From the NCBI GenBank assembly GCA_028286885.1, contig JAQBQS010000008.1, positions 12,121 through 76,120 on the forward strand: a stretch of DNA of 64,000 nucleotides. Reading direction: 5' to 3'. Origin of the DNA: Patescibacteria group bacterium. Its GTDB lineage: Bacteria > Patescibacteriota > Minisyncoccia > Phycocordibacterales > UBA1006. The position numbers and the translations under genes are program-made. Of the stretch, positions 5,957-51,203 are shown in pieces (positions within the stretch are counted from its first letter, which is position 1; the number at the start of each line of letters is the position of its first letter). The notes beneath the pieces were generated by a model that had not been told where the DNA came from, searched no databases, and saw only the letters and a program-made list of their open reading frames with translations.

Positions 5957-6382
5957 TCATATTCTTTCTACCAAGAAGTAGCAGCCTTCCCATTCGTCCA
6001 CTCGCTCTCTCTTGAATATTTGAGACCAATTATTATCTTTTCTTGAGGTAATAGCCACGAGAATGCGACTTCCTTGGTAAACAAGAAACGCAAGATGCGA
6101 ATAGATATCTTCTTCTATTGAGACAACGACGGTTTCTTCGCTAAATCCCTCTTCACCCAAGCACGCGACATACCGCGAATCTACTGCCCGGTATCCGTTT
6201 TTAAGTAGAACCTCGGGGATGAGTTCAGAACCTTTTTCGTCAAATACTACAACGTAAAGATTTTTTGCTTCAAGATTATCAGTACCTTTGATATAAATTT
6301 CAGCAGCGTACTGAATAAAATCAAACTTTTCAAGTTTTTCTCTTGTAAATGCAATGTTATTAATTTCTTTTATTATTTTCAC
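5957..6382 (-). CDS. hypothetical protein
   Basis: 141 aa ORF with a GTG start; no motif recognised. Confidence 0.4.
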   Translation of the reverse strand: MKIIKEINNIAFTREKLEKFDFIQYAAEIYIKGTDNLEAKNLYVVVFDEKGSELIPEVLLKNGYRAVDSRYVACLGEEGFSEETVVVSIEEDIYSHLAFLVYQGSRILVAITSRKDNNWSQIFKRERVDEWEGCYFLVERI

Positions 6383-6431
6383 GATGCTTGTTTTTAAATT
6401 TTAAACACAATAACATTGTTAATCTGTAAGG

Positions 6432-6459
6432 TCAAGTATTCTTGGCACTATGCTATACT
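6432..6459 (+). promoter_or_regulatory. sigma70-like promoter (TCAAGT-16-TATACT), -10 box 9 nt upstream of priA ATG
   Basis: Read directly from the sequence. Confidence 0.4.
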
Positions 6460-6468
6460 GCAAAAATC

Positions 6469-8376
6469 ATGAAGATCCTGACCGTCATCCCCATCGCCAA
6501 AGGCATCCCCCGCGACGAGCTGTCGTATTTTTCCGCGAAGCAGGTGGGGCTCGGTACGATGGTAACGGTTCCCTTCGGCGGAAGAAAAATCAAGGCAATC
6601 GTGATTGACGAAAACGAAGTCCGCGACTTGAAGCAGTCGATCAAGAATGAATCGTACTCCTTGAAAAATATTTTAGAGATCCACGCTGACGGATTGCCAT
6701 ACTGCATATTCGCATCGGCGCAAAAAACTGCGCGGTTTTTCGGACAGCCTGCCGGAGCCATTTTGGAGACAATGGTTCCTAAGCCGCTTTTTGAAAAGTA
6801 CTTGTCAAACCCCACCCCACCCCTCCCCGAAGCTCGAGAGGGCGCCCGCAACGCTGATATCCAATCAATTCAAGCTCCCTACCGCGAGCGCATTTCGATT
6901 TACAAGACGATGATCCGGGAAAACATGGCGCGCAACTCCTCGACCATGGTCATCGCACCGACGGTCATTCAGGCCGAGACCTTGTTCGCCGAGCTGAAAC
7001 TTGGAATTGACGACAGAATATTCGCCCTTCACGGAAAGGTTTCCAAGAAAAAATTAGAGTCGAACATCAAAAACGTTTTCGAACGCGAGACGCCGATCGT
7101 TGTCATCGCGACGCCGCCTTATTCGTCTGTCTTGCGCAACGACTGGGCGTCATTCATCGTCGAGCAGTCAAGCTCGCATAATTATCGATACGACTTCAAG
7201 CCGAATTTCGACATGCGGCTGTTCCTCGAACAGTTCGCGTTAGCATGTCGCGCACGCGTGATCTATGCCGACACGCTTTTGGATATCGGAATTCGCACCC
7301 GCATTAACAAGCGGGAAATAATAGAAAACAGAAATACCTGGCATATTGCGAAACCGGAAAATTTCCGCGTGACGGACATGAAGCCTGACGAACGGCCGGA
7401 CACCGTACGAATTTCTCCCATCAAGTCTGACATCTTGGGCATTGATGCGTGCGCCATGCTCACGGCAGGAATAAAAGACAATGCGAACATAATGCTCTTG
7501 TCGCAGCGAAAAGGCATTGCACCCATGACAACCTGCGTAGACTGCGGAACGGTGGTGTCATGCCCCGTATGCGATACGCCTCTCGTCCTGCATCGCAAGA
7601 AGCCTAACTCTGCCGAGCGAATTTATATGTGCCATCATTGCCTCACCTCTTCGATCGCGCTTGATTACTGCAAGAACTGCAACGGATCCAGGTTCAAGAT
7701 GTTCGGCATTACAACAGAAACGATTCGCGCCGAAGTCGAGAAAATCTTTCCGACCGCGCGCACCTTTTTAATCGACGGCGATAATGCAGCGACTCCGGCA
7801 GCGGTTTCAAAAACCATCTCTGCATGGCAAGAGGAATCTGGAATTCTGATTGCGACCCAAGCCATGCTGCCGTATATTCCGTCGGCTGACATGGGCTGCA
7901 TCGTTTCGATGGATTCGATGCTCTCGATGCCTTCCTACACGTCCGGCGAAAACGCCGTGTACTCGATCGTCTCGTTCCTCGAGAAAATTTCGCGCGCCGC
8001 AATCGTCCAGACGAGAATGCATTCGCACGAAGCGGTGCAGGCCATCGAGCGCGAGGACTTGCACGGATTCATGAAGTCCGAACTTGAATCGAGAATCCAG
8101 TTCGGCTATCCGCCTGAAAAAATACTTTTGAAGATTTCGCTTGATGCCAAGAAAACAGACGCCAAGGATGCCAGCGTTTACTTGGAAACGATTTTCAAGA
8201 AATACGATCCTGACATCCTGATGAAAAAATCAAGGGACATCGACAATTCGATTATTCAAGCCGTCATGAAAATCGAGCCGACACTCTGGAACGACGAGAA
8301 TTCCCGCATCCAGCAAATCGTACGCGAAATGCCTCGGGAATTCACACGCGAAGTAAATCCAGATTCGGTTATTTGA
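6469..8376 (+). CDS. priA: primosomal protein N' (PriA)-like, helicase motifs degenerate
   Basis: N-terminal 3'-DNA-binding-like segment (TMVTVPFGGRKIKAIVI). Zinc cluster CVDCGTVVSCPVCDTP...MCHHC...CKNCNG. PriA-like order of motif blocks, but no GxGKT Walker A and no DEEH motif. ATG at 6469 follows TATACT at 6454..6459. Confidence 0.7.
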   Translation: MKILTVIPIAKGIPRDELSYFSAKQVGLGTMVTVPFGGRKIKAIVIDENEVRDLKQSIKNESYSLKNILEIHADGLPYCIFASAQKTARFFGQPAGAILETMVPKPLFEKYLSNPTPPLPEAREGARNADIQSIQAPYRERISIYKTMIRENMARNSSTMVIAPTVIQAETLFAELKLGIDDRIFALHGKVSKKKLESNIKNVFERETPIVVIATPPYSSVLRNDWASFIVEQSSSHNYRYDFKPNFDMRLFLEQFALACRARVIYADTLLDIGIRTRINKREIIENRNTWHIAKPENFRVTDMKPDERPDTVRISPIKSDILGIDACAMLTAGIKDNANIMLLSQRKGIAPMTTCVDCGTVVSCPVCDTPLVLHRKKPNSAERIYMCHHCLTSSIALDYCKNCNGSRFKMFGITTETIRAEVEKIFPTARTFLIDGDNAATPAAVSKTISAWQEESGILIATQAMLPYIPSADMGCIVSMDSMLSMPSYTSGENAVYSIVSFLEKISRAAIVQTRMHSHEAVQAIEREDLHGFMKSELESRIQFGYPPEKILLKISLDAKKTDAKDASVYLETIFKKYDPDILMKKSRDIDNSIIQAVMKIEPTLWNDENSRIQQIVREMPREFTREVNPDSVI

Positions 8377-8401
8377 CAAATAAAATTTTATTGTGTATAT
8401 T
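8374..8401 (+). promoter_or_regulatory. sigma70-like promoter (TTGACA-16-TATATT) overlapping the priA stop
   Basis: Consensus -35, good -10. Drives the 8.4-8.78 kb unit that ends at the terminator. Confidence 0.45.
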
Positions 8402-8753
8402 TTTCCGAAACATCCGTACAATGACAGTATACAAAATAGGAAAAACAAGAATCTCAATCAAAACATCTTTTTACAGCAGCTTAAACAGGTTCACCAATTC
8501 AATGCTCGGACTGGAAGTTCTGAATTTAGCATTCGGCCCCGAGCATCGTTTGTCCGAGTGTACCGTGCGATCAGTAGAATCTGACCATGGATCAAAGGAA
8601 GTATTCCTGATCCAAGGCGTGGGCAAATATTGTGCAGACCCTGCGATTGAACAGATGATTCCTTGTTCATTCGAGGGAACGTTTAATCTCAATACTCACG
8701 CGCTCGAGCTTGAGGCATACCTGCCCAAGAAAAATCCCGACTATTAAATTATG

Positions 8754-8785
8754 AAGCCGGACATCGTTCCGGCTTTTTTATTTTG
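8754..8785 (+). terminator. intrinsic terminator
   Basis: aagccgga-catcgt-tccggctt followed by a T-run. Confidence 0.6.
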
Positions 8786-8790
8786 AAAAC

Positions 8791-8819
8791 TTGATAATTC
8801 TCTATTTTTGTTCTATAAT
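8791..8819 (+). promoter_or_regulatory. promoter TTGATA-17-TATAAT, 6 nt before ATG 8826
   Basis: Near-consensus boxes. Confidence 0.5.
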
Positions 8820-23872: not shown

Positions 23873-24907
23873 TTAATTCGCTGGCGTACAAGCCGGAACG
23901 AAGACTTCGTTGTTATTCACGAGAGAAAATGACGCTCCGACTTGGCCTGCCTGATTTTGCGCCAAGGTATTCGTAGCCTCGCCAGATCCGGCTTCCATGC
24001 TCCGATGCGAAATGACGATCAAGTCGCTTTTAGTGAGGATTGCCGAATCGCTGTATGCCGGATCGGACATGAGACTTCCTCCGTAGTTGACCGCCGCAAT
24101 TGATCCTGCAGAGCCGAACAAGGGACTCGCAGGCAAGCATCCGTCTGCCACAAGCGACTTGCTGGCATTATCGTAGGTAATGGCTCCAACCTTTGTTACG
24201 ACAGGAGGAGTAAAGAAACTTTTGTTAGTTGCCTTGAACGTTATTTGCTCGAGAGGCACTCCCTTATACTGATCCGAAATGCTATCTGACGTAATCGTTA
24301 CTGTTTTCTTGGTAAGATCTTCAACTAATTTCCACGTGTCCGGATACTTGAAACTGAAACCGAGTTTTGTGCTTGAATATGTTTTCCAATTTGTCGTATC
24401 AATCGCAACTCCTGACGCATTTGCCGGATTCTGGTCAGCCGGTACTGATGCTTGAGTGTTCGCAGCTTGCTGTGCCTGCTGCGTTGCCTGCATTGCTGCA
24501 AGCGACTGGACTGCCGCATTTTTTTGAACATTGAGCATCCAGACCATGTAGCCCGCGACTGCTATGACGATAAGCAATAAAACAACAAGAATCCAAATCA
24601 ACATCTTTGAAGATTTCGGCGCAACAACTGCTGCCTGAGAAGCAATAACAGGAGCAGGTCGCAGAGACTCAACTGGCTGCGCTTGCGAAATGGTAGGCTC
24701 TACTCGCTGAAACGTCTTTACCGATTCGACGGGCTGTATGGGCGCGGATGTCTGATAAGAAACAACTGGAGGCACGGCTTGCGCAAAAGCTTCTGCAATA
24801 TCTGCAGGCATCCAGCCGTTATCTTGGAGCATTTTTGAAATAGACTCCTTGCTCGCTCCTGTCGCAAGTTGGCCTTTAATGAACGCGATGACTTCTTGAG
24901 TGATCAT
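23873..24907 (-). CDS. hypothetical single-pass membrane protein with Gln/Ala-rich linker
   Basis: Cytoplasmic N-domain, low-complexity linker, TM helix, then an extracellular domain. Confidence 0.5.
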   Translation of the reverse strand: MITQEVIAFIKGQLATGASKESISKMLQDNGWMPADIAEAFAQAVPPVVSYQTSAPIQPVESVKTFQRVEPTISQAQPVESLRPAPVIASQAAVVAPKSSKMLIWILVVLLLIVIAVAGYMVWMLNVQKNAAVQSLAAMQATQQAQQAANTQASVPADQNPANASGVAIDTTNWKTYSSTKLGFSFKYPDTWKLVEDLTKKTVTITSDSISDQYKGVPLEQITFKATNKSFFTPPVVTKVGAITYDNASKSLVADGCLPASPLFGSAGSIAAVNYGGSLMSDPAYSDSAILTKSDLIVISHRSMEAGSGEATNTLAQNQAGQVGASFSLVNNNEVFVPACTPAN

Positions 24908-24952
24908 ATGAAAATATCATACCACTTTTTATTTTTGTATACTATTGAGTTG

Positions 24953-25024
24953 TGCCCAAACCAGGAATCGAACCTGGATCTACTCGTTAGGAGTGAGTTG
25001 TTCTATCCATTGAACTACAAGGGC
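24953..25024 (-). tRNA. tRNA-Arg (anticodon CCU), atypical acceptor stem
   Basis: 5' half GCCCTTGTAGTTCAATGGATAGAAC, anticodon loop CTCCTAA and T-arm CCAGGTTCGATTCCTGG are canonical. The acceptor 3' strand is TTTGGGC, which leaves U5-U67 and U6-U66 mismatches. A31-C39 is also a mismatch. Confidence 0.6.
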
Positions 25025-25113: not shown

Positions 25114-26991
25114 TTAAGTCTTTTTCTTGTTGCGTTTGGCTATTTGCACAGCTATCGAATCCAAATCCTGGTCAGTTACCTCGCCGTTCCTCATCGTATT
25201 CTTTGCGGAAGTACGCAGGGCGTCTTTGGACTGGTCGATTTTCTGACGTTCGATTTTCGACTGCACTGCCTGCTCATTTGCAGAACGTGTCAGCTTTACG
25301 CTCGAGTTTTTGAAATCGTTTACTGCAATAATTTCCGAAGCCATGTCCAAAAATTGGATCGTGACATTGTCTCCCGGCTGCGTTATGACGATTCCGGGGA
25401 ATGTCTGGCTCACGCTGTAGAGGTGCGGATTATTATCAAAATAGAGATAATAGATCGAACCCGAACTGGTAGGAGTGCTGCTGATGCGAGTCACTTTTCC
25501 CGAAAACGTCTCGACGAGGGATGCCTGGTCGGTTCCGATCGCGGATGAAATGGACGAAAGCGAACTTTGGTATTTCATCAGCGCTTGCTGCGGATCAGGA
25601 TCCCATGCCATCGTCTTGCTTACCACGTCGATGAGAGCCAAGCCTTTTATGGAATGGTCCTCGGCGAGGATAGGCATGACGGCCGTCATCTTGTCACCGA
25701 CGTTTTCAAAGATGATCGCGGCGGGATGAAGATGCTGAAACTTAACCGTGGAGTTTACTGAATTAGTGAGAGCTTCCTCGGTCGAACCTGAAACAGAATA
25801 GCGTTTTGATTCGCCTGTTCTGCTGTTGGTATAGATCAAGTCTGTCATCGTTTGCGAGGCGTTTTTTCCGCTGCCTACGCTTGCTTTGACAGGAGTCACA
25901 TACCAACAGGTACCGTCTTCTCCGTAATTAAGCAGCGACGTCTCGGGCGTTCTGAGGTTTGCTTGAGCGCCGACAGCTGTCCTGTTCATAAAGCCCAAAG
26001 AATACCTCCCCCAATAAGAAATGTTGTCCTGCACGATCTCTTCCGGAATAACGCGGTCAATCCACAAAGGAGCTTTGGACTTGTCGTAGTAGGTAATCAA
26101 TCCATTTTCAGGATTTACAACAGCTACGCCGTCGACTACGATTCCGTCGCCTCCGATCGTCGAATGGCAAACGCTGACAACCCAAAAAGGGTTCAGGCTG
26201 TCGTCTACTTCAAACGAATAGTCTTTCAGGATTTTCCCTGAATATCCGTTTGTGTACAGATGCCTTTCGAGATTATGATCCCAGAAAGCTTCAGGCGTGT
26301 ACAGCATTTTGTACCCCCTGATATAGCGGGGCACGACATGCTGATTTTCGGCATTTACGAGCACGTATCCCGGAACGCCTGTGGTTCCATTGTAAGATCC
26401 CCAGCTTCTGTAATCGAGAGGAATGACCCACACCAGTTCGTCTTTTACCTTCTGCAAGGTAGCATTGTCGTCAAGCAGCGTAAACTGGCTTCCGACAATG
26501 TCTCCCTGATCATCAGGATTCTGATTAAGCGACGTCTTGGCAATCGATATGGCATGCTCGACCGGAACAACGCGCAAATGCGTCGGCGAGACCTCTTCGG
26601 TCTGCTGGGTCCAATGCTTCAATGAGTGGCCTTCTTTGTCGAGAGGCCCGATCAGAGCGGCATATCTCGTTGAGTTTCCGGCAGTACAGCTTGACATACC
26701 GCATACCGCGATCGCAAAAAAATAAACGAGCGTTACGATTACAGCCCCGGATGAGGCCTTTTCATTAGCAACGCTTGCCAGCACGCAGCTGACGATCATC
26801 AGAACGAGTGTCCAAAGAGATGGACCGCTTGTCATAATGAAGTTAAGCGAAGGACAGGTCGTGTAATAAATTACCCCGCTTAGGAGAAAATAGATTACGA
26901 ATAAAACTCCAGAGAGCACGGGTTTTCTGCCGATCAAGGCAGGGACGGCGCCTAAAAACGCCGAGATAAGGGCTAACAGTAAAAATGTCAT
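25114..26991 (-). CDS. hypothetical polytopic membrane protein with large extracytoplasmic domain
   Basis: About five N-terminal TM helices followed by roughly 450 aa of soluble domain. Start set at ATG 26991, since the ORF-track start is TTG. TTGCAA-16-TAAATT lies 8 nt upstream. Confidence 0.55.
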   Translation of the reverse strand: MTFLLLALISAFLGAVPALIGRKPVLSGVLFVIYFLLSGVIYYTTCPSLNFIMTSGPSLWTLVLMIVSCVLASVANEKASSGAVIVTLVYFFAIAVCGMSSCTAGNSTRYAALIGPLDKEGHSLKHWTQQTEEVSPTHLRVVPVEHAISIAKTSLNQNPDDQGDIVGSQFTLLDDNATLQKVKDELVWVIPLDYRSWGSYNGTTGVPGYVLVNAENQHVVPRYIRGYKMLYTPEAFWDHNLERHLYTNGYSGKILKDYSFEVDDSLNPFWVVSVCHSTIGGDGIVVDGVAVVNPENGLITYYDKSKAPLWIDRVIPEEIVQDNISYWGRYSLGFMNRTAVGAQANLRTPETSLLNYGEDGTCWYVTPVKASVGSGKNASQTMTDLIYTNSRTGESKRYSVSGSTEEALTNSVNSTVKFQHLHPAAIIFENVGDKMTAVMPILAEDHSIKGLALIDVVSKTMAWDPDPQQALMKYQSSLSSISSAIGTDQASLVETFSGKVTRISSTPTSSGSIYYLYFDNNPHLYSVSQTFPGIVITQPGDNVTIQFLDMASEIIAVNDFKNSSVKLTRSANEQAVQSKIERQKIDQSKDALRTSAKNTMRNGEVTDQDLDSIAVQIAKRNKKKT

Positions 26992-27099
26992 GGTTTTAAA
27001 ATTTAAATGAACAATATCCTTTTGCAAGGGTGAGAATTCCCATTCGGGCAATCCTCAATATCGATTAAAAGATAACATTTTTAAAGTAAAAAGTCAAGT

Positions 27100-37014: not shown

Positions 37015-39924
37015 TTAGATGACGATCGAAATAATTTTGCCGGCAACATAGATAAATTTCTTTACGTCTTTTCCGTCAGTCCATTTCTTGATCTCGTCCA
37101 TCGCGAAGACTTTTTCGCGAACTGATTCCTCGCTTTCATCCTTGGCAAGTTCGATTTCGGCACGGACTTTTCCGTTGACTTGGATGCCGAGCTTCACCGT
37201 GTCATCAATGACAAGATTCGAATCATACTTTGGCCAATCTGACAGATGAATTGAATCAGTTTCGCCAAGCTCGTGCCAGATTTCTTCGGCGACATGCGGC
37301 GCAAATGGGGCAAGAATTTTCAAGAATGCCTTAAGATCCAAAACGGAAATCTGATAATCAGAATCAATTTCATTGGCAAGAATCATCAGCGATGAAACGG
37401 CCGTATTGAACTTGAATCCTTCGATATCATCACTCACCTTTTTAATCGTCTTGTGAAGCAATTTTTGTATGCCTTCACGAGTAGCGCCATTTGCATTCTT
37501 GGCCTTCTCGGAAATTTTCCAGACTTTTTCAACAAAGCGGAGCGTTCCAACCATCCCGTTCATGTCCCAACGCGCGGTCTGTTCAAACGGCCCGATGAAC
37601 ATTTCGTACAAACGGAAAGCATCGGCGCCGAATTGGTTCACGACATCGGTCGGATCAATTCCGTTCCCGTCGCGCTTCGAAAATTTCTTGCCATTCTTGT
37701 CCAAAATATATCCCAAGAATTCAAGGCGAGGAAACGGCTCTTCAGTCGAAACGGCGCCGATATCGAAGAGGAACTTGTGCCAGAACCTTGCATAGATCAG
37801 ATGCCGTGTCGCATGATCTGCTCCTGAATAAATATCGACGGGCATCCAGTGTTTTTCCTTGTCTTTGTCTACGAATGCATCTTGATTATGCGGATCAATG
37901 TAACGCAAGTAGTACCAAGACGATCCGGCCCACTGTGGCATTGTGTTGGTTTCGCGTTTTGCTGCGCCTCCGCATTTAGGACATGGAATGTTAACCCATG
38001 ATTCGATCGCGGCGAGCGGACTCTCCCCTGTTCCTGTCGGTTCGTAATGGGACACCTCAGGCAACATGACCGGAAGTTCCGATTCCGGAACGGGTACAAC
38101 GCCGCATTTCTCGCAGTGGATCATGGGAATCGGTTCGCCCCAGTAGCGCTGACGCGAGAAGACCCAATCCTTCAGACGATACGTAGCCATCAGTTTCCCG
38201 CCGACGAACTCGGTAATTTTTTTGCGAGCTTCACTTGAATCCATTCCATCAAACTCTCCTGAATTTACAAGAATGCCGGATTCGACATATGCTTCGTCAT
38301 TATTTTTTGCGAGACGCGCGAGCCAGTACGGAAGTTCCGAATTGACCATTTTGCCCGGAACAAATTCTGATTTTGAAACCCATACATTTTCGTTGCCTTC
38401 GTTTTCACCATCTGTTGGAATTTTAATTTTTGCATCACTTCGAAGTTCGAAATACAGGGCCGACGCAATCGCGTTGCGATTCTCGTCTTTATGCTTCGCA
38501 AAATACGATGCCTGAACTGGATTGCCGAGGAATCGCTTGAATTCCAAATCGGCATAACCCGTTTCCTCTTGCAATTCGCGCGTTGCCGCCTCGATCAGAT
38601 CCTCACCTTCCTCAACACCGCCAATTACAACTGTATCCCATCCGAATTTTGAATTCCTGATGATGAGGTATTTTTCAGTTTTCGGATCATAGACGATGGC
38701 ATGCACGTTCCGTCTTACTTTTGTCGCCTTATCTGTTCGAGGAGGATTTACATGATCAACAACCGAAGGCCGAACAACTTCGTGAATCGGCAAATCATAT
38801 TTTTTTGCAAATTCGAAATCGCGCTCATCGTGCGCCGGAACCGCCATCACCGCACCTGTTCCATAATTCGCCAAGACGTAGTCGGCAACGTAGACAGGAA
38901 TCTCTTGTGCGTTTGCAGGATTGATCGCAACAACGCCTTCGATTCGCACGCCCGTCTTTTCCTTCTTGGCATTTGTTCGATCAATGTCCGATTTCTCGGA
39001 AGACTGTTTTACGTAAGCTCGCACCTCATCCTCATTATCGATAACATCTTTATGATTTTCATCCAACGCCAATGTTACCCAAGGATGCTCGGGAGCAAGC
39101 ACGATGTATGTCACCCCAAAGAGCGTATCCGCGCGCGTCGTGAAAACAGGAAGACGCGCAGGATTTCCATCCGCATCGCGTCGTTCGTTCCAATCTGGAT
39201 GCGTCGTGAATTTCAAGTTGAAATAAATTTCCGAACCTTCTGAACGTCCGATCCAGTTTCGCTGGGCTTCTTTCACGCCTTCCGGCCACTTCGAGAGCTT
39301 GTCCAAGTCCGCAAGCATTCGGTCTGCATAATCGGTAATCTTCAGAACCCACTGGCGCATCGGACGCTTCTCGACTTTCGCTCCGCATCGTTCGCATGTT
39401 CCGTCAGCTTCGACGTCCTCGTTGGCAAGAACCGTCTTATCGACAGGACACCAATTGACCGGTTCATTTGATTCGTATGCCAATCCCTTGTTGAACATCT
39501 GGATGAACATCCACTGCGTCCACTTGTAAAATCCGGGATCGGTCGTGTTGATTTCTCGCGACCAGTCGTAATCGAATCCGATGACAGACAACTGATCTTT
39601 AAAAGCTTGAATATTTTTTTCAACAGCAACACGCGGATGGACTTTATTCTTGATAGCAAAATTTTCTGCAGGCAGACCAAAAGCATCCCATCCCATCGGA
39701 TGCAGTACATTGAATCCCATCATGCGCTTCATGCGACTGTACACGTCGGTCGCAATAAATCCCCGCGGATGTCCGACGTGGAGTCCGATGCCTGACGGAT
39801 ACGGGAACATGTCCAAAATCAGCTGCTTGGGCTTGTCAGAATTCTCAGCCGTCTTGTACGTCTGATTCTTGTTCCAAGTTTCCTGCCATTTCGATTCGAT
39901 TTTCTTGTGATCGTAATTGTTCAT
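37015..39924 (-). CDS. leuS: leucine--tRNA ligase carrying an inserted NUDIX domain
   Basis: HVGH and KMSKS (KFSKR) motifs. CP1 editing motifs TTRADTLFGVTYIVLAPEH and GTGAVMAVPAHD. The YRLKDWVFSRQRYWGEPIP segment. About 165 extra residues lie between KYDLPIHEV and LVNSGEFDG. Confidence 0.9.
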   Translation of the reverse strand: MNNYDHKKIESKWQETWNKNQTYKTAENSDKPKQLILDMFPYPSGIGLHVGHPRGFIATDVYSRMKRMMGFNVLHPMGWDAFGLPAENFAIKNKVHPRVAVEKNIQAFKDQLSVIGFDYDWSREINTTDPGFYKWTQWMFIQMFNKGLAYESNEPVNWCPVDKTVLANEDVEADGTCERCGAKVEKRPMRQWVLKITDYADRMLADLDKLSKWPEGVKEAQRNWIGRSEGSEIYFNLKFTTHPDWNERRDADGNPARLPVFTTRADTLFGVTYIVLAPEHPWVTLALDENHKDVIDNEDEVRAYVKQSSEKSDIDRTNAKKEKTGVRIEGVVAINPANAQEIPVYVADYVLANYGTGAVMAVPAHDERDFEFAKKYDLPIHEVVRPSVVDHVNPPRTDKATKVRRNVHAIVYDPKTEKYLIIRNSKFGWDTVVIGGVEEGEDLIEAATRELQEETGYADLEFKRFLGNPVQASYFAKHKDENRNAIASALYFELRSDAKIKIPTDGENEGNENVWVSKSEFVPGKMVNSELPYWLARLAKNNDEAYVESGILVNSGEFDGMDSSEARKKITEFVGGKLMATYRLKDWVFSRQRYWGEPIPMIHCEKCGVVPVPESELPVMLPEVSHYEPTGTGESPLAAIESWVNIPCPKCGGAAKRETNTMPQWAGSSWYYLRYIDPHNQDAFVDKDKEKHWMPVDIYSGADHATRHLIYARFWHKFLFDIGAVSTEEPFPRLEFLGYILDKNGKKFSKRDGNGIDPTDVVNQFGADAFRLYEMFIGPFEQTARWDMNGMVGTLRFVEKVWKISEKAKNANGATREGIQKLLHKTIKKVSDDIEGFKFNTAVSSLMILANEIDSDYQISVLDLKAFLKILAPFAPHVAEEIWHELGETDSIHLSDWPKYDSNLVIDDTVKLGIQVNGKVRAEIELAKDESEESVREKVFAMDEIKKWTDGKDVKKFIYVAGKIISIVI
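38275..38772 (-). other. NUDIX hydrolase domain inserted within LeuRS (residues ~385-550)
   Basis: Nudix box GGVEEGEDLIEAATRELQEETG lies in frame inside leuS (DNA 38554..38622), flanked by a complete Nudix-fold-sized segment. Confidence 0.6.
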
Positions 39925-49169: not shown

Positions 49170-51203
49170 ATGAACACTCATAAAGACCAATCAGAAAACT
49201 CCGGACACCACGGAGAATTCCAAAAGAGTCAGAGCCAGCCGCACCCAAGTGCCGGATCGTTCCGGCCGGGCGACCGCGGACAAAGCAGCCACAAAACGGC
49301 TGTTTACCGCAAAGACAACTCATTATCAACGATTGAGGCGGCCCTCAACCGAATTATTCCAGCCGAACACGCGGGCGAATTTCATGCGAAGAAAATGAAT
49401 TCATCTCGCCCTCCTAACAAGCGATTCACAAACGATCGCCGTGGCGGAGGCGGACGCAACTTCCGCGATCGCGGAACGGACATGGAGCGATCGCCAAGGA
49501 GGCACAACGACATCATCCCGCCACTTGCGCCCGGCGATTTGCGCGTCATTGCGATCGGAGGAGTCGAAGGAATCGGAAACGTCAACATGACGGCCGTCGA
49601 ATACAAGGATCAGATCGTCGTCATCGACGCCGGACTCGGATTCTCAAACGACGACACGCCGGGAGTCGACATGACCATTCCCAACACGAAATACCTCGAA
49701 GAGCGCAAGCACATGGTGAAAGCTTTGGTCATTACGCACGGACACTTCGACCACATCGGAGCCGTTTCGCAGATCATGGAATCGATCGGAAACCCTCCTA
49801 TCTACACCCGCGAATTCGGTGCAATGGTCATCCAGAAGCGCCACGAGGAACATCCTCATCTCCCGAACCTCGACATCAAGATTGTTGAGAAGGACGACGG
49901 AGCGCTTCCCCTCTCTGATGATTTGAAAGTCCGATTCTTCGGGCTGACCCACTCGATTCCGGACTCGACAGGAGTCATTATCGAAACGCCTTACGGCGAT
50001 GTCATCTCGACAGGCGACGTCCGCGTTGAAAACAACGACGGCATTCCGACTGACGAGGAATACGCGCAGTACGCGATGTTCAAGGAGCGCAACGTCCTCC
50101 TCATGACACTCGACTCGACAGGAATCGACAAACCGGGATGGACCATCTCGGAGAAAGTCGTCGTCGAAAACATCGATAGAATTGTCCGCGAAACCAAAGG
50201 CCGCATTCTGATCACCGCATTCGCATCCCAGGTGGAGCGCATGCTGAAATTCATCGAGATCGCAAAGCGCCACGGTCGCATCGTCGTCATCGACGGACGA
50301 TCAATGAAGAGCAACCTGGCGATTGCAAAGCACTTGAAACTTGCAACGCTCGACAACGTCGTCACGATCGAGGACATGCACAAGTATCCGAGCAACAAGA
50401 TCATGATGCTCGCGACCGGCGGACAGGCGGAACCGTATTCAGTACTGGATCGCGCGTCCAAAGGAACGCACAAGCTCGTAAAAATCGAGAAGAGCGACAC
50501 GATCATCTTCTCGTCATCCGTAATCCCCGGAAACGAGCGTATCGTGGACATCTTGAAAGATGCCCTGTACCGAAAGGATCCCAAGATCATCACGTATCAG
50601 GATTCCGAGGTTCACGCCTCAGGCCATGGAAAGCGAAACGAGCTCGAATGGGTTCACAAGCAGATCAACTACAAGTATTTCATGCCGGTGCACGGAAACT
50701 ACGCGCGCCTCATGATGCACCGCGACATGGTGGAAGGCCTCGGCTTCCCACGCGAGAAAATCATCATTCCCGAAGGAAACGGAACGATCATCGAATTCCG
50801 CAAGAATGCGGCTGAAATGGTCATCCTCCGAGAGCGCGCTCCGCACCAGGTCATCGCGGTCGAGGGACTCCAGATCGGAGAGCTCCAAGAGGTCGTCATG
50901 CGAGACCGAAAGCTGCTTCTTGAATCCGGAGTGTTCAACGTCTTCGCCGTCATTGACGAGAAAACAGGAAAACTGAAAAAATCGCCTGACATCTTCTCGC
51001 GAGGATTCGTCTACATCCGCGAGAACCAGGAATTGTTCCACAAGGTCCGCGGGCTCGTGAAGAAAGTCATCGAAGACCGAACGGTTGACCCGAACTACTC
51101 GATCGACGAACTCAAGGAAGAACTCGTCGAGAAAATCGAGCGGTTCCTCCTCCAGAAGACCGGCAAAAAGCCGATCGTGATGGCGGCGATTGTATCGTTC
51201 TAA
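49170..51203 (+). CDS. rnj: ribonuclease J (metallo-beta-lactamase/beta-CASP) with Gly/Arg-rich N-terminal extension
   Basis: HGHFDHIGA motif and beta-CASP region. About 115 aa of disordered N-terminus containing RRGGGGRNFRDRG. Confidence 0.9.
   Translation: MNTHKDQSENSGHHGEFQKSQSQPHPSAGSFRPGDRGQSSHKTAVYRKDNSLSTIEAALNRIIPAEHAGEFHAKKMNSSRPPNKRFTNDRRGGGGRNFRDRGTDMERSPRRHNDIIPPLAPGDLRVIAIGGVEGIGNVNMTAVEYKDQIVVIDAGLGFSNDDTPGVDMTIPNTKYLEERKHMVKALVITHGHFDHIGAVSQIMESIGNPPIYTREFGAMVIQKRHEEHPHLPNLDIKIVEKDDGALPLSDDLKVRFFGLTHSIPDSTGVIIETPYGDVISTGDVRVENNDGIPTDEEYAQYAMFKERNVLLMTLDSTGIDKPGWTISEKVVVENIDRIVRETKGRILITAFASQVERMLKFIEIAKRHGRIVVIDGRSMKSNLAIAKHLKLATLDNVVTIEDMHKYPSNKIMMLATGGQAEPYSVLDRASKGTHKLVKIEKSDTIIFSSSVIPGNERIVDILKDALYRKDPKIITYQDSEVHASGHGKRNELEWVHKQINYKYFMPVHGNYARLMMHRDMVEGLGFPREKIIIPEGNGTIIEFRKNAAEMVILRERAPHQVIAVEGLQIGELQEVVMRDRKLLLESGVFNVFAVIDEKTGKLKKSPDIFSRGFVYIRENQELFHKVRGLVKKVIEDRTVDPNYSIDELKEELVEKIERFLLQKTGKKPIVMAAIVSF

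What the first reader, a model, noticed from the sequence alone, without database searches (positions are those of the whole stretch)
6469..8376. PriA homolog with lost Walker A and DEEH helicase motifs
The protein keeps the PriA N-terminal DNA-binding-like region and the Cys4-Cys4 zinc cluster (CVDCGTVVSCPVCDTP...YMCHHC...CKNCNG). It also keeps the order of helicase-core blocks: MVIAPTVIQAETL, LHGKVSKKKLE and IVVIATPPYSSV. Where GVTGSGKT should be there is IYKTMIRENMARNSS. Where DEEH should be there is VEQSSS. This predicts an ATPase-dead PriA. It may be retained as a structural or fork-recognition factor.
Basis: partly seen in the sequence, partly recalled or inferred. Interest (0 to 1): 0.55.

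Follow-up and report, generated by a model that had tools for sequence, protein, structure and literature searches.

The report
ATPase-dead PriA in ultrasmall (CPR) bacteria
This gene encodes a well-conserved version of the replication-restart protein PriA that keeps the PriA shape, DNA-end-binding domain and zinc cluster but has lost every residue needed to burn ATP, and the same loss is shared by a very large group of Patescibacteria (CPR) bacteria, so these organisms apparently restart replication with a PriA that cannot act as a helicase.

Summary
Window 6469-8376 (+) is an intact 635-aa ORF that is a PriA homologue. Pfam finds the 3' DNA-binding domain. The AlphaFold2 model (pLDDT 88.8) matches E. 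coli and Klebsiella PriA (TM 0.72). All eight zinc-cluster cysteines are present. Two independent alignments (MAFFT, hhalign E 1.8e-70) give the same register. Walker A GVTGSGKT corresponds to QAPYRERI (aa 135-142), with the catalytic Lys replaced by Arg141. DEEH corresponds to EQSS (aa 232-235). Motifs III and VI are also gone.

The loss is not private to this genome. More than 220 representative homologues from Patescibacteria share it. The former ATP site is rebuilt and strongly conserved (Arg141 100%, Arg150 99%). Relatives sit in the ancestral priA-def-fmt locus, which argues for orthology. Other CPR lineages show less eroded forms or intact short PriAs.

The best reading is a PriA pseudohelicase acting as an ATP-independent fork-recognition and helicase-loading scaffold. 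The only described precedent I found is Deinococcus-Thermus PriA (Lopper 2015). No paper I could search reports this for CPR.

The parts
6469..8376 (+). Complete CDS of the PriA-family pseudohelicase (635 aa plus stop)
   Evidence: ORF. The start is fixed by N-terminal conservation in homologues. The product is identical to P0001, 'MAG: helicase PriA [Patescibacteria group bacterium]'.
6451..6459 (+). Extended -10-like element TGcTATACT, 9 nt upstream of the ATG, with no Shine-Dalgarno (possible near-leaderless start)
   Evidence: Read directly from the sequence. This is a consensus resemblance only and was not tested.
6469..6783 (+). 3' DNA-binding domain (3'BD), aa 1-105
   Evidence: Pfam PF17764 26.1 bits, above the 22.7 cut-off. 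Canonical-invariant Y18, G29, V32, V34, K61 are kept as Y20, G29, V32, V34, K66. pN against a 73%-identical relative is only 0.089.
6853..7383 (+). Degenerate RecA-like lobe 1, aa 129-305. The winged-helix domain that precedes it in E. coli PriA is absent.
   Evidence: Alignments. Model secondary structure and pLDDT of 90 or more over most of the lobe. Foldseek match to PriA.
6871..6894 (+). Former motif I (Walker A) position: QAPYRERI, aa 135-142. R141 occupies the column of catalytic K230.
   Evidence: MAFFT and hhalign agree. In 224 family sequences R141 is 100% conserved and Q135 96%.
6901..6921 (+). Conserved helix after the former P-loop: Y145-[KR]-x2-[IV]-R150-E151
   Evidence: Y145 96%, R150 99%, E151 92% in 224 sequences. 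The 131-170 block has pN 0.087, as low as the 3'BD.
7162..7173 (+). Former motif II (DEEH) position: E232 Q233 S234 S235
   Evidence: In the family, position 232 is always acidic (E 75%, D 25%), 233 is mostly basic, and 234 is E 75% / S 17%.
7270..7278 (+). Former motif III (SAT) position: D268 T269 L270
7435..8103 (+). Degenerate RecA-like lobe 2, aa 323-545. Motif IV R-x-G (R347, G349) and the motif V Thr (T463) are retained.
   Evidence: phmmer to PriA structures 4nl4 and 6dgd over aa 337-551, E 4e-16.
7525..7689 (+). Cys-rich zinc-binding region (CRR), aa 353-407, four CxxC pairs, with a family-specific basic insertion (HRKKPNSAERIY) between pairs 2 and 3
   Evidence: All eight Cys align with the E. 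coli CRR cysteines. They are 96-100% conserved in 224 sequences.
7972..7995 (+). Former motif VI (QVAGRAGR) position: SFLEKISR, aa 502-509. The arginine-finger motif is lost and the following loop is 5 aa shorter.
8104..8373 (+). PriA C-terminal domain, aa 546-635
   Evidence: hhalign runs to about E. coli residue 695. The Foldseek alignment covers 681 columns of 8fak_H. Canonical R625, P631, P632 are kept as R542, P548, P549, each 100% conserved.

Best explanation
The gene is the orthologue of priA in a Patescibacteria (CPR; Paceibacteria/Parcubacteria-type) genome. It encodes a pseudohelicase.

The protein keeps the PriA architecture: a 3' DNA-end-binding domain, two RecA-like lobes, a Cys8 two-zinc region and a C-terminal domain. 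It has no winged helix. The nucleotide-binding site has been erased and rebuilt into a different, conserved Arg/Glu-rich surface.

It most likely still recognises abandoned replication forks or D-loops. Recognition would use the 3'BD and the DNA-contacting parts of the lobes (motifs Ia, Ib, IV and V are partly kept). It would then act as an ATP-independent platform that brings the replicative helicase DnaB back onto the lagging-strand template, directly or through an unknown adaptor. Any duplex clearing would be left to other helicases or would not be needed.

Shown here by computation: homology, fold, motif loss, family-wide conservation, purifying selection and the orthologous locus. Inferred: lack of ATPase and helicase activity, fork binding, and the DnaB-loading role.
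For: Homology and fold:
- Pfam finds the 3'BD.
- hhalign against canonical PriA gives prob 100%, E 1.8e-70 over 575 columns.
- The AF2 model has pLDDT 88.8 and pTM 0.87.
- The best PDB matches are all PriA (8fak_H E 3.9e-37, TM 0.72; also 6dcr, 4nl4, 6dgd, 4nl8). The next best fold is Mfd at E 4e-10.

Motif loss:
- Every canonical-invariant residue of motifs I, III and VI is replaced, and DEEH becomes EQSS.
- 35 of 71 canonical-invariant positions survive. These include all eight Cys, the 3'BD residues, the motif Ia Pro, motif IV Gly, motif V Thr, Q-T and R...PP.

Not decay:
- 81 full-length homologues from the first search and the 146 newly returned 50%-identity cluster representatives among the best 150 of the profile search all lack the motifs. 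The exceptions are one off-register P-loop-like string and one DEEH string. 137 of the 146 keep four or more CxxC.
- R141 is 100%, R150 99%, Q135 96% and Y145 96% conserved.
- Against a 73%-identical relative, pS is 0.83 (saturated) and pN 0.17. The former motif I/Ia block has pN 0.087.

Orthology:
- Family members in Lloydbacteria (L034) and the less eroded type in Yanofskybacteria and Paceibacterota (L033, L010) lie directly upstream of def and fmt.
- Canonical priA lies in the same position in the Bacillota, Clostridia, Lachnospiraceae and Spirochaetales loci examined.
- No second PriA-like sequence is found in the window or in 12 related loci.

Functional precedent:
- E. coli priA300 (K230R) has no ATPase or helicase activity, yet supports restart in vivo and in vitro through the PriA-PriB pathway (PMC5778457).
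- D. radiodurans PriA, with the same K-to-R substitution, lacks ATPase and helicase activity but binds fork DNA and DnaB (PMC4504706).
Against: - No biochemical or genetic data exist for this protein or any family member.
- The rest of the genome could not be examined. A second, intact priA, the presence of dnaB, a loader (dciA, dnaC or dnaI) and ssb are all unverified.
- In the window's own subclade the gene is no longer next to def-fmt. It sits upstream of a SAM methyltransferase, rpsU, ybeY and ftsA, so local context gives no functional link to replication.
- The strongly conserved rebuilt pocket could mean a new activity rather than a mere scaffold.
- The score is below the NCBIfam priA equivalog cut-off (130 vs 230 bits).
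Confidence: 0.7

Rival explanations
1. Neofunctionalised PriA-derived protein. The rebuilt, conserved Arg/Glu pocket binds a new ligand or partner, and the protein does something other than replication restart. It may coexist with a canonical priA elsewhere in the genome.
For: The former ATP site is among the best conserved parts of the protein (R141 100%, R150 99%, E151 92%, acidic 232 100%), which a pure loss of function does not require. The window gene has left the def-fmt neighbourhood. The whole genome could not be checked.
Against: The 3'BD, CRR and CTD are the PriA-specific fork-recognition and partner-binding modules, and all are retained and conserved. Relatives occupy the ancestral priA-def-fmt slot. 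No second PriA was found in the window or in 12 loci. CPR genomes are small and paralogue-poor (general knowledge).
Confidence: 0.17
2. The protein is still an active NTPase or helicase that uses a non-canonical site, for example R141 as a lysine surrogate and E/D232 as the metal ligand.
For: A basic residue (R141) and an acidic residue (E/D232) persist in the Walker A Lys and Walker B Asp columns.
Against: The glycine-rich P-loop is gone (QAPYRERI), and in the model the helix starts right after the strand (E131-135, H138-154). The Thr/Ser Mg ligand is replaced by Ile/Leu/Phe. The second and third acidic residues and the His of DEEH are gone in this subclade. Motif III and both motif VI arginines are gone. 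K230R alone abolishes E. coli PriA ATPase (PMC5778457), and the D. radiodurans K-to-R PriA is inactive (PMC4504706).
Confidence: 0.05
3. Artefact or decaying pseudogene. The motifs would be hidden by a frameshift, an assembly error or a by-eye misalignment, or the gene would be in the process of being lost.
For: The score is below the curated priA cut-off.
Against: The ORF is uninterrupted at 635 aa and colinear with more than 220 homologues from independent assemblies. No P-loop or DExH occurs in any frame. Two alignment methods agree. The fold is predicted with high confidence. Non-synonymous divergence is low against saturated synonymous divergence.
Confidence: 0.02

Closest known systems
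Deinococcus-Thermus PriA pseudohelicase (D. radiodurans PriA; Lopper, Boone & Morrow 2015, PMC4504706)
   Same: Both are natural PriA orthologues with poor matches to helicase motifs I and II. Both have Arg in the column of the Walker A catalytic Lys (here R141, aligned to K230). The protein is retained and conserved across a whole lineage. The experimentally shown behaviour of DrPriA (no ATPase or helicase activity, but fork/ssDNA binding and DnaB interaction) is the model for the mechanism proposed here.
   Different: The phylum is different (Patescibacteria/CPR). The erosion goes much further: the whole glycine-rich loop, motif III and motif VI are gone, and a new conserved signature has replaced them (Q-x4-[ED]-R-x3-Y-[KR]-x2-[IV]-R-E). 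There is no winged-helix domain. I could not obtain a Deinococcus PriA sequence, so a direct alignment or phylogeny with it was not done. Independence of the two losses is inferred from phylogenetic distance only.
E. coli PriA K230R (priA300) and K230A/D engineered ATPase-dead variants (reviewed in PMC5778457; K230A control in PMC5175346)
   Same: The residue column is the same and the predicted consequence is the same, namely no ATPase, helicase or translocase activity. These variants show that PriA can still assemble a primosome and support restart without ATP hydrolysis.
   Different: They are single engineered substitutions in an otherwise intact helicase that works with PriB, DnaT and DnaC. 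In E. coli the PriA-PriC route still needs the helicase. The partners of the CPR protein are unknown.
Canonical PriA (E. coli and K. pneumoniae; PDB 8FAK, 6DCR, 4NL4, 6DGD, 4NL8; TIGR00595)
   Same: The domain order and fold are the same apart from the missing winged helix (TM 0.72). The CRR cysteines are the same. The 3'BD signature, motif IV/V backbone-contact residues, and the Q-T and R...YPP elements are shared. Relatives share the priA-def-fmt locus.
   Different: Identity is only 15-16%. There is no WH domain, which makes it comparable to the engineered WH-deletion protein 6DCR. Motifs I, II, III and VI are absent. W333 of the aromatic-rich loop is replaced by Pro (97% in the family). 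The score is below the TIGR00595 cut-off.
Short-form canonical PriA of other CPR lineages (e.g. P0330 'Candidatus Peregrinibacteria', P0344 'Patescibacteria group bacterium') and the less eroded CPR pseudo-PriA type (L010, P0260-P0322; Taylorbacteria, Yanofskybacteria)
   Same: All are about 630-670 aa with no WH domain and come from the same super-phylum. The less eroded type also lacks motifs I, III and VI. It groups with the window family in a rough NJ tree (76/100 bootstraps).
   Different: The short canonical forms keep GxTGSGKT, DEEH, SATP and QVxGRxGR. The less eroded type keeps motif Ia VPEIS, a [IV]EDPxNEAYK motif II remnant and a Pfam-detectable PriA_C domain. The window family is the most derived tip.

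Membership tests
PriA / primosomal protein N' (TIGR00595, PRK05580) | N-terminal 3' DNA-binding domain | tested here: met
   Pfam PF17764 26.1 bits, above the 22.7 cut-off. Conserved Y20, G29, V32, V34, K66.
PriA / primosomal protein N' (TIGR00595, PRK05580) | SF2 two-lobe RecA-like core with PriA-specific topology and C-terminal domain | tested here: met
   AF2 model pLDDT 88.8. Foldseek top nine hits are all PriA, TM 0.65-0.72, E down to 3.9e-37. hhalign prob 100%.
PriA / primosomal protein N' (TIGR00595, PRK05580) | Cys-rich region CxxC-Xn-CxxC-Xn-CxxC-Xn-CxxC inserted in lobe 2 | tested here: met
   Eight Cys align to E. coli C436-C479. They are 96-100% conserved in the family.
PriA / primosomal protein N' (TIGR00595, PRK05580) | Walker A GxTGSGKT (motif I) | tested here: not met
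   QAPYRERI at aa 135-142 by MAFFT and hhalign. No P-loop in any frame.
PriA / primosomal protein N' (TIGR00595, PRK05580) | Walker B DEEH (motif II), motif III SAT, motif VI QxxGRxGR | tested here: not met
   EQSS, DTL and SFLEKISR in the corresponding columns.
PriA / primosomal protein N' (TIGR00595, PRK05580) | Score above the curated equivalog cut-off | tested here: not met
   TIGR00595 130.4 bits vs 230.35. NF004066 144.7 vs 813.
PriA / primosomal protein N' (TIGR00595, PRK05580) | Winged-helix domain between 3'BD and helicase core (present in E. coli-type PriA but not universal) | tested here: not met
   About 100 residues are missing in the alignment. Intact short CPR PriAs also lack it, so it is not a strict membership criterion.
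PriA / primosomal protein N' (TIGR00595, PRK05580) | Orthologous genomic position (priA-def-fmt) | tested here: inconclusive
   Met for family members L034 and the related type in L010 and L033, and for canonical priA loci L011-L026. Not met in the window itself, where the order is priA-like, methyltransferase, rpsU, ybeY, ftsA, the same as in L001.
PriA / primosomal protein N' (TIGR00595, PRK05580) | DNA-dependent ATPase, 3'-5' helicase, primosome assembly | not testable with these tools
   Requires purified protein or genetics.
PriA pseudohelicase (Deinococcus-Thermus type, Lopper 2015) | PriA orthologue with non-consensus motifs I and II, and Arg in place of the Walker A Lys | tested here: met
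   R141 aligns to K230 and is 100% conserved. DEEH is lost. Criterion taken from PMC4504706.
PriA pseudohelicase (Deinococcus-Thermus type, Lopper 2015) | No ATPase or helicase activity, but fork/ssDNA binding and DnaB interaction | not testable with these tools
   These are biochemical properties.
PriA pseudohelicase (Deinococcus-Thermus type, Lopper 2015) | Common descent with the Deinococcus-Thermus PriA clade | not tested
The organism here is Patescibacteria, so an independent loss is presumed.

The most novel reading that the evidence does not exclude
A major part of the Candidate Phyla Radiation (Paceibacteria/Parcubacteria-type Patescibacteria) has converted PriA into an obligate non-enzymatic restart factor. 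There are hundreds to thousands of lineages, judging from at least 220 representative sequences.

The erosion appears stepwise and is still visible in living lineages: intact short PriA, then partly degenerate forms, then the 'EDPxNE' type, then the [DE]xES type, then the window's ExSSS type.

The former ATP pocket was not simply lost. It was rebuilt into a new invariant Arg/Glu network (Q135, E140-R141, Y145, R150-E151, E/D232). This network either latches the two lobes in one conformation or binds a new partner or ligand.

If so, nature has run the priA300 experiment on a grand scale, and CPR bacteria reveal the minimal, ATP-independent core of PriA function.
Probability: 0.35. Interest if true: 0.65.

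Novelty: new variant of a known kind. Interest (0 to 1): 0.5.

Why it matters
[quoted passage not shown] This finding adds a second, much larger and far more radical natural case.

It strengthens the view that PriA's essential job is structure-specific recognition and helicase loading rather than unwinding. It also provides a graded natural series of ATP-site erosion for dissecting which PriA surfaces are indispensable.

There is a practical consequence for annotation. Public records call these proteins 'helicase PriA', 'primosomal protein N'' or 'hypothetical protein', and none flags the loss of catalytic motifs. Models such as TIGR00595 miss them, which can make CPR genomes look priA-less or helicase-proficient when they are neither.

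For CPR biology, it is one more example of a core informational protein being remodelled in these reduced, host-dependent bacteria.

Tried and rejected
- Context of the window's own contig: the look-up of encoding contigs on P0001 returned nothing on record.
It was repeated with a 23-sequence alignment.
A genome-wide search for a second priA, or for dnaB, dciA or ssb in the same MAGs, was therefore impossible.
- Foldseek against afdb50 was unavailable.
- The first bootstrap NJ run timed out. It was redone with a fast distance routine. The tree is rough (NJ, Kimura distance, long-branch attraction possible) and is used only as an indication.
- I tried to map the SSB-tail-binding residue recalled from memory as 'R697'. 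E. coli position 697 is Ser, so my recollection was wrong and the point was dropped. Conservation of the SSB pocket is untested.
- Literature searches for PriA with Patescibacteria, candidate phyla radiation or Parcubacteria found only unrelated co-mentions. One Nature 2023 paper mentions priA next to novel families in phylum UBP6, not CPR.
- Frameshift and hidden-motif hypothesis: rejected.
- Pseudogene hypothesis: rejected.
- Pfam scan of 30 other window ORFs found no replication genes near the locus.
- Rfam and tRNA scans found only four tRNAs.
Full report
**1. What is at the coordinates**

The window carries one long ORF at 6442..8376 on the + strand. Its ATG at 6469 is the true start, because every homologue begins with the same MKILTVIPIAKGIPR N-terminus. 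This gives a 635-aa product, exactly the interval of the finding. The protein is identical to a public entry named 'MAG: helicase PriA [Patescibacteria group bacterium]' from an 86-kb contig.

The surrounding genes are ordinary housekeeping genes of a small bacterial genome. They include alanine racemase, a NUDIX protein, an amino-acid kinase, a D-Ala-D-Ala dipeptidase and a pseudouridine synthase. Downstream lie a SAM methyltransferase, S21, YbeY, FtsA and FtsZ, followed further on by tRNA synthetases, LepA, MurJ, MurB and RNase J. There is no second PriA-like sequence in the 64 kb. No replication gene was found among the 30 ORFs scanned.

**2. Is it PriA?**

Library searches give partial support.
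- Pfam detects only the PriA 3' DNA-binding domain above threshold (26.1 vs 22.7 bits). DEAD and Helicase_C are not detected.
- NCBIfam's priA equivalog TIGR00595 scores 130 bits, well below its 230-bit cut-off.
- phmmer against PDB finds PriA structures only over aa 337-551, the zinc region and lobe 2.

More sensitive methods are unambiguous.
- A profile of 77 family members aligns to a profile of canonical PriAs over 575 columns (hhalign probability 100%, E 1.8e-70). The canonical profile included E. coli PriA read from NC_000913.3.
- An AlphaFold2 model built on the family alignment is confident (mean pLDDT 88.8, pTM 0.87).
- Its nine best matches among solved structures are all PriA: 8fak_H at E 3.9e-37 and TM 0.72, then 6dcr, 4nl4, 6dgd and 4nl8. 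Mfd follows at E 4e-10.

The winged-helix domain of E. coli PriA is absent. The best-matching structures include the engineered WH-deletion PriA (6dcr).

**3. The motifs**

MAFFT L-INS-i with E. coli PriA and eight other canonical PriAs and hhalign give the same register.

| Motif | E. coli PriA | Window protein |
|---|---|---|
| I | G224-VTGSGK230-T231 | Q135-APYRER141-I142 |
| II | D320 E321 E322 H323 | E232 Q233 S234 S235 |
| III | S-A-T | D-T-L |
| VI | QVAGRAGR | SFLEKISR, with a 5-residue shorter loop after it |

The catalytic Lys column holds Arg141. The conserved Tyr after the P-loop (Y234) is kept as Y145, which anchors the register.

The DEEH assignment (VEQSSS) was right. No P-loop or DExH string exists in any of the six frames of 6300-8500, so no frameshift hides the motifs.

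Of 71 positions invariant in my canonical PriA set, 35 are retained by the family majority. The retained positions are:
- all eight CRR cysteines;
- the 3'BD residues (Y, G, V, V, K);
- the motif Ia Pro, the motif IV Gly (with R/K), and the motif V Gly-Thr;
- Q-T and R...P-P near the lobe 2/CTD junction.

These are structural or DNA-backbone-contact positions by analogy with other SF2 helicases (established knowledge). In contrast, every ATP-contacting position is replaced. In the aromatic-rich loop that couples DNA binding to ATPase in E. coli PriA (K328-Y335; PMC5175346), W333 is replaced by Pro (97% in the family). A basic residue at the K328 column and Y239 are kept.

**4. The loss is a lineage trait, not an accident**

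The word-indexed search returned 81 full-length relatives at 27-73% identity. None has GxxGxGK[ST] or DEEH, while the canonical PriAs found in the same search do.

A profile search of 1.84 billion 50%-identity cluster representatives returned 18,830 hits at E of 1e-3 or better. This total includes canonical PriAs. The best 150 all scored at least 659 bits, nearly all over the full length. Of the 146 new representatives, one has an off-register P-loop-like string and one has a DEEH string. 137 keep four or more CxxC.

Names attached to members and to GTDB loci place the family in Patescibacteria. Examples are Candidatus Nomurabacteria, Candidatus Lloydbacteria, Candidatus Paceibacterota, and MAGs labelled Saccharibacteria or 'Patescibacteria group'.

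In a 224-sequence alignment the former ATP site is one of the better conserved regions:
- Q135 96%
- acidic residue at position 140, 95%
- R141 100%
- Y145 96%
- K/R146 98%
- R150 99%
- E151 92%
- acidic residue at position 232, 100%

Against a 73%-identical relative (L003), synonymous differences are saturated (pS 0.83) while pN is 0.17. The former motif I/Ia block has pN 0.087, as low as the 3'BD. The gene is therefore under purifying selection, and the pocket has been rebuilt rather than abandoned.

A plausible explanation is that R141 and E/D232 preserve the Lys-Asp contact that Walker A and B residues make in nucleotide-free P-loop proteins, now as a permanent structural salt bridge. This is inference from general knowledge. 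I could not inspect model coordinates.

**5. Orthologue or extra paralogue?**

- A Lloydbacteria family member (L034) lies immediately upstream of def and fmt. So do two members of a related, less eroded type (L010, L033).
- tblastn shows the same priA-def-fmt order, or priA-fmt in Listeria, next to canonical priA in the Bacillota, Clostridia, Lachnospiraceae and Spirochaetales loci fetched by the same scan.
- The pseudo-PriA therefore occupies the ancestral priA slot.
- In the window's own subclade the neighbourhood has changed to priA-like, methyltransferase, rpsU, ybeY, ftsA ... ftsZ. This order is conserved in a 746-kb JGI contig at 52% protein identity.
- No second PriA-like hit exists in the window or in 12 related loci.

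A whole-genome census was not possible with the tools and caps available.

**6. A wider pattern in CPR**

Searching with the protein of locus L010 (24% identical to the window protein) uncovered three groups.
- A second pseudo-PriA type in Taylorbacteria and Yanofskybacteria. Motifs I, III and VI are lost, but VPEIS (Ia) and [IV]EDPxNEAYK (a motif II remnant) are kept.
- Single partly degenerate proteins: P0090 with GPAAIGKT / DEQD and motif VI lost; P0345 with DEAH and SATP kept but the P-loop lost; and P0335.
- Fully canonical short PriAs without a WH domain in other CPR lineages (P0330 Candidatus Peregrinibacteria; P0344 Patescibacteria, on a 516-kb contig).

A rough NJ tree was built from 597 columns with 100 bootstraps.
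- The window family is monophyletic (100/100) and nested among the less eroded type.
- All fully eroded types group together in 76/100 replicates.
- Within the family, the window's subclade (ExSSS) is the most derived tip.

Long-branch attraction could inflate this grouping. Whether there was one loss or several is left open.

**7. Mechanism**

Established knowledge comes from two sources.
- E. coli PriA K230R (priA300), K230A and K230D lack ATPase, helicase and translocase activity. Yet priA300 cells are nearly wild type, and the protein assembles primosomes in vitro. Helicase activity is needed only for some routes, such as PriA-PriC and Mu (PMC5778457; PMC5175346).
- D. radiodurans PriA carries the same Lys-to-Arg change and poor motif II. 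It was shown to have no ATPase or helicase activity but to bind ssDNA, fork DNA and DnaB, and was named a pseudohelicase. The trait is shared by 17 Deinococcus-Thermus PriAs (PMC4504706).

By analogy, I propose that the CPR protein binds abandoned forks or D-loops through its 3'BD and the remaining DNA-contact elements of the lobes. It would then serve as an ATP-independent landing pad, probably through the CRR and CTD surfaces, for reloading DnaB. Lagging-strand clearing would be either unnecessary or delegated to other helicases.

Only the sequence and structure statements are shown. The activity statements are inferences.

**8. Comparison with the known, and novelty**

The protein works like, and can be filed as, a PriA-family pseudohelicase. 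It fails the catalytic-motif and curated-score criteria of canonical PriA, so it should not be annotated as 'helicase PriA'.

Compared with the Deinococcus-Thermus precedent:
- it is in a different phylum;
- the erosion is far more complete;
- the pocket carries a new conserved signature;
- it is embedded in a graded series of erosion states within CPR.

I found no paper in the searchable library that reports this. The 2018 review names Deinococcus as the only exception. I rate it a new variant of a known kind, with moderate interest (0.5). It is real and large in scale, and it is a useful natural experiment. It is conceptually anticipated by priA300 and DrPriA, and is so far supported only by computation.

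Noticed in passing
window 37015-39924 (-): A 969-aa leucyl-tRNA synthetase carries a NUDIX hydrolase domain (Pfam PF00293, E 7.6e-15, aa 404-528). The domain is inserted directly after the editing domain (aa 222-390) and before the rest of the catalytic and anticodon-binding parts. This is an unusual domain insertion in an aaRS.
   Followed up: no
window 8377-8807 (+): A 430-nt spacer lies between the priA-like gene and the SAM methyltransferase gene. It is absent in the 52%-identical relative L001, where the two genes abut. It holds an ORF (8373 or 8421..8747; 124 or 108 aa) with no Pfam hit. The ORF is followed by a GC-rich hairpin plus T-run at 8753-8778 (aagccggacatcgttccggctttttt). No Rfam family matches.
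   Followed up: partly
window 25114-27051 (-) and 23873-24907 (-): Two sizeable ORFs (645 aa and 344 aa) have no Pfam match at E of 1e-5 or better. They flank a tRNA-Arg(CCT) gene at 24952-25024.
   Followed up: no
window 6451-6468 (+): An extended -10-like TGcTATACT lies only 9 nt before the priA-like ATG, with no Shine-Dalgarno sequence. This suggests a leaderless or near-leaderless transcript.
   Followed up: no
L010 1377-3260; L033 6001-7914; proteins P0260-P0322: A second, less eroded PriA pseudohelicase type occurs in Candidatus Taylorbacteria, Yanofskybacteria and Paceibacterota. Motifs I, III and VI are lost, motif Ia VPEIS is kept, motif II is [IV]EDPxNEAYK, and PriA_C is still detectable by Pfam. 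It lies in a priA-def-fmt arrangement.
   Followed up: partly
proteins P0090, P0335, P0345: These are isolated partly degenerate PriAs. P0090 has GPAAIGKT / LDEQD / SATP with motif VI lost. P0345 has lost the P-loop but keeps DEAH and SATP. They are possible intermediates or independent erosions. In the rough tree, P0090 falls outside the CPR pseudo-PriA group.
   Followed up: partly
L032 2521-6533 (GCA_041660565.1, next to a canonical short CPR priA): The intact CPR priA P0344 is followed by an RNase_H_2 / DNA_pol_B_exo-like gene and a 1056-aa RHS/YD-repeat protein. A similar DNA_pol_B_exo-like gene also lies at the edge of the Yanofskybacteria pseudo-priA locus L033.
   Followed up: no
window 49170-51203 (+): RNase J (beta-CASP, RNase_J_C) with its metallo-beta-lactamase domain starting only at about aa 136. 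This implies an N-terminal extension of roughly 130 residues without a Pfam match.
   Followed up: no
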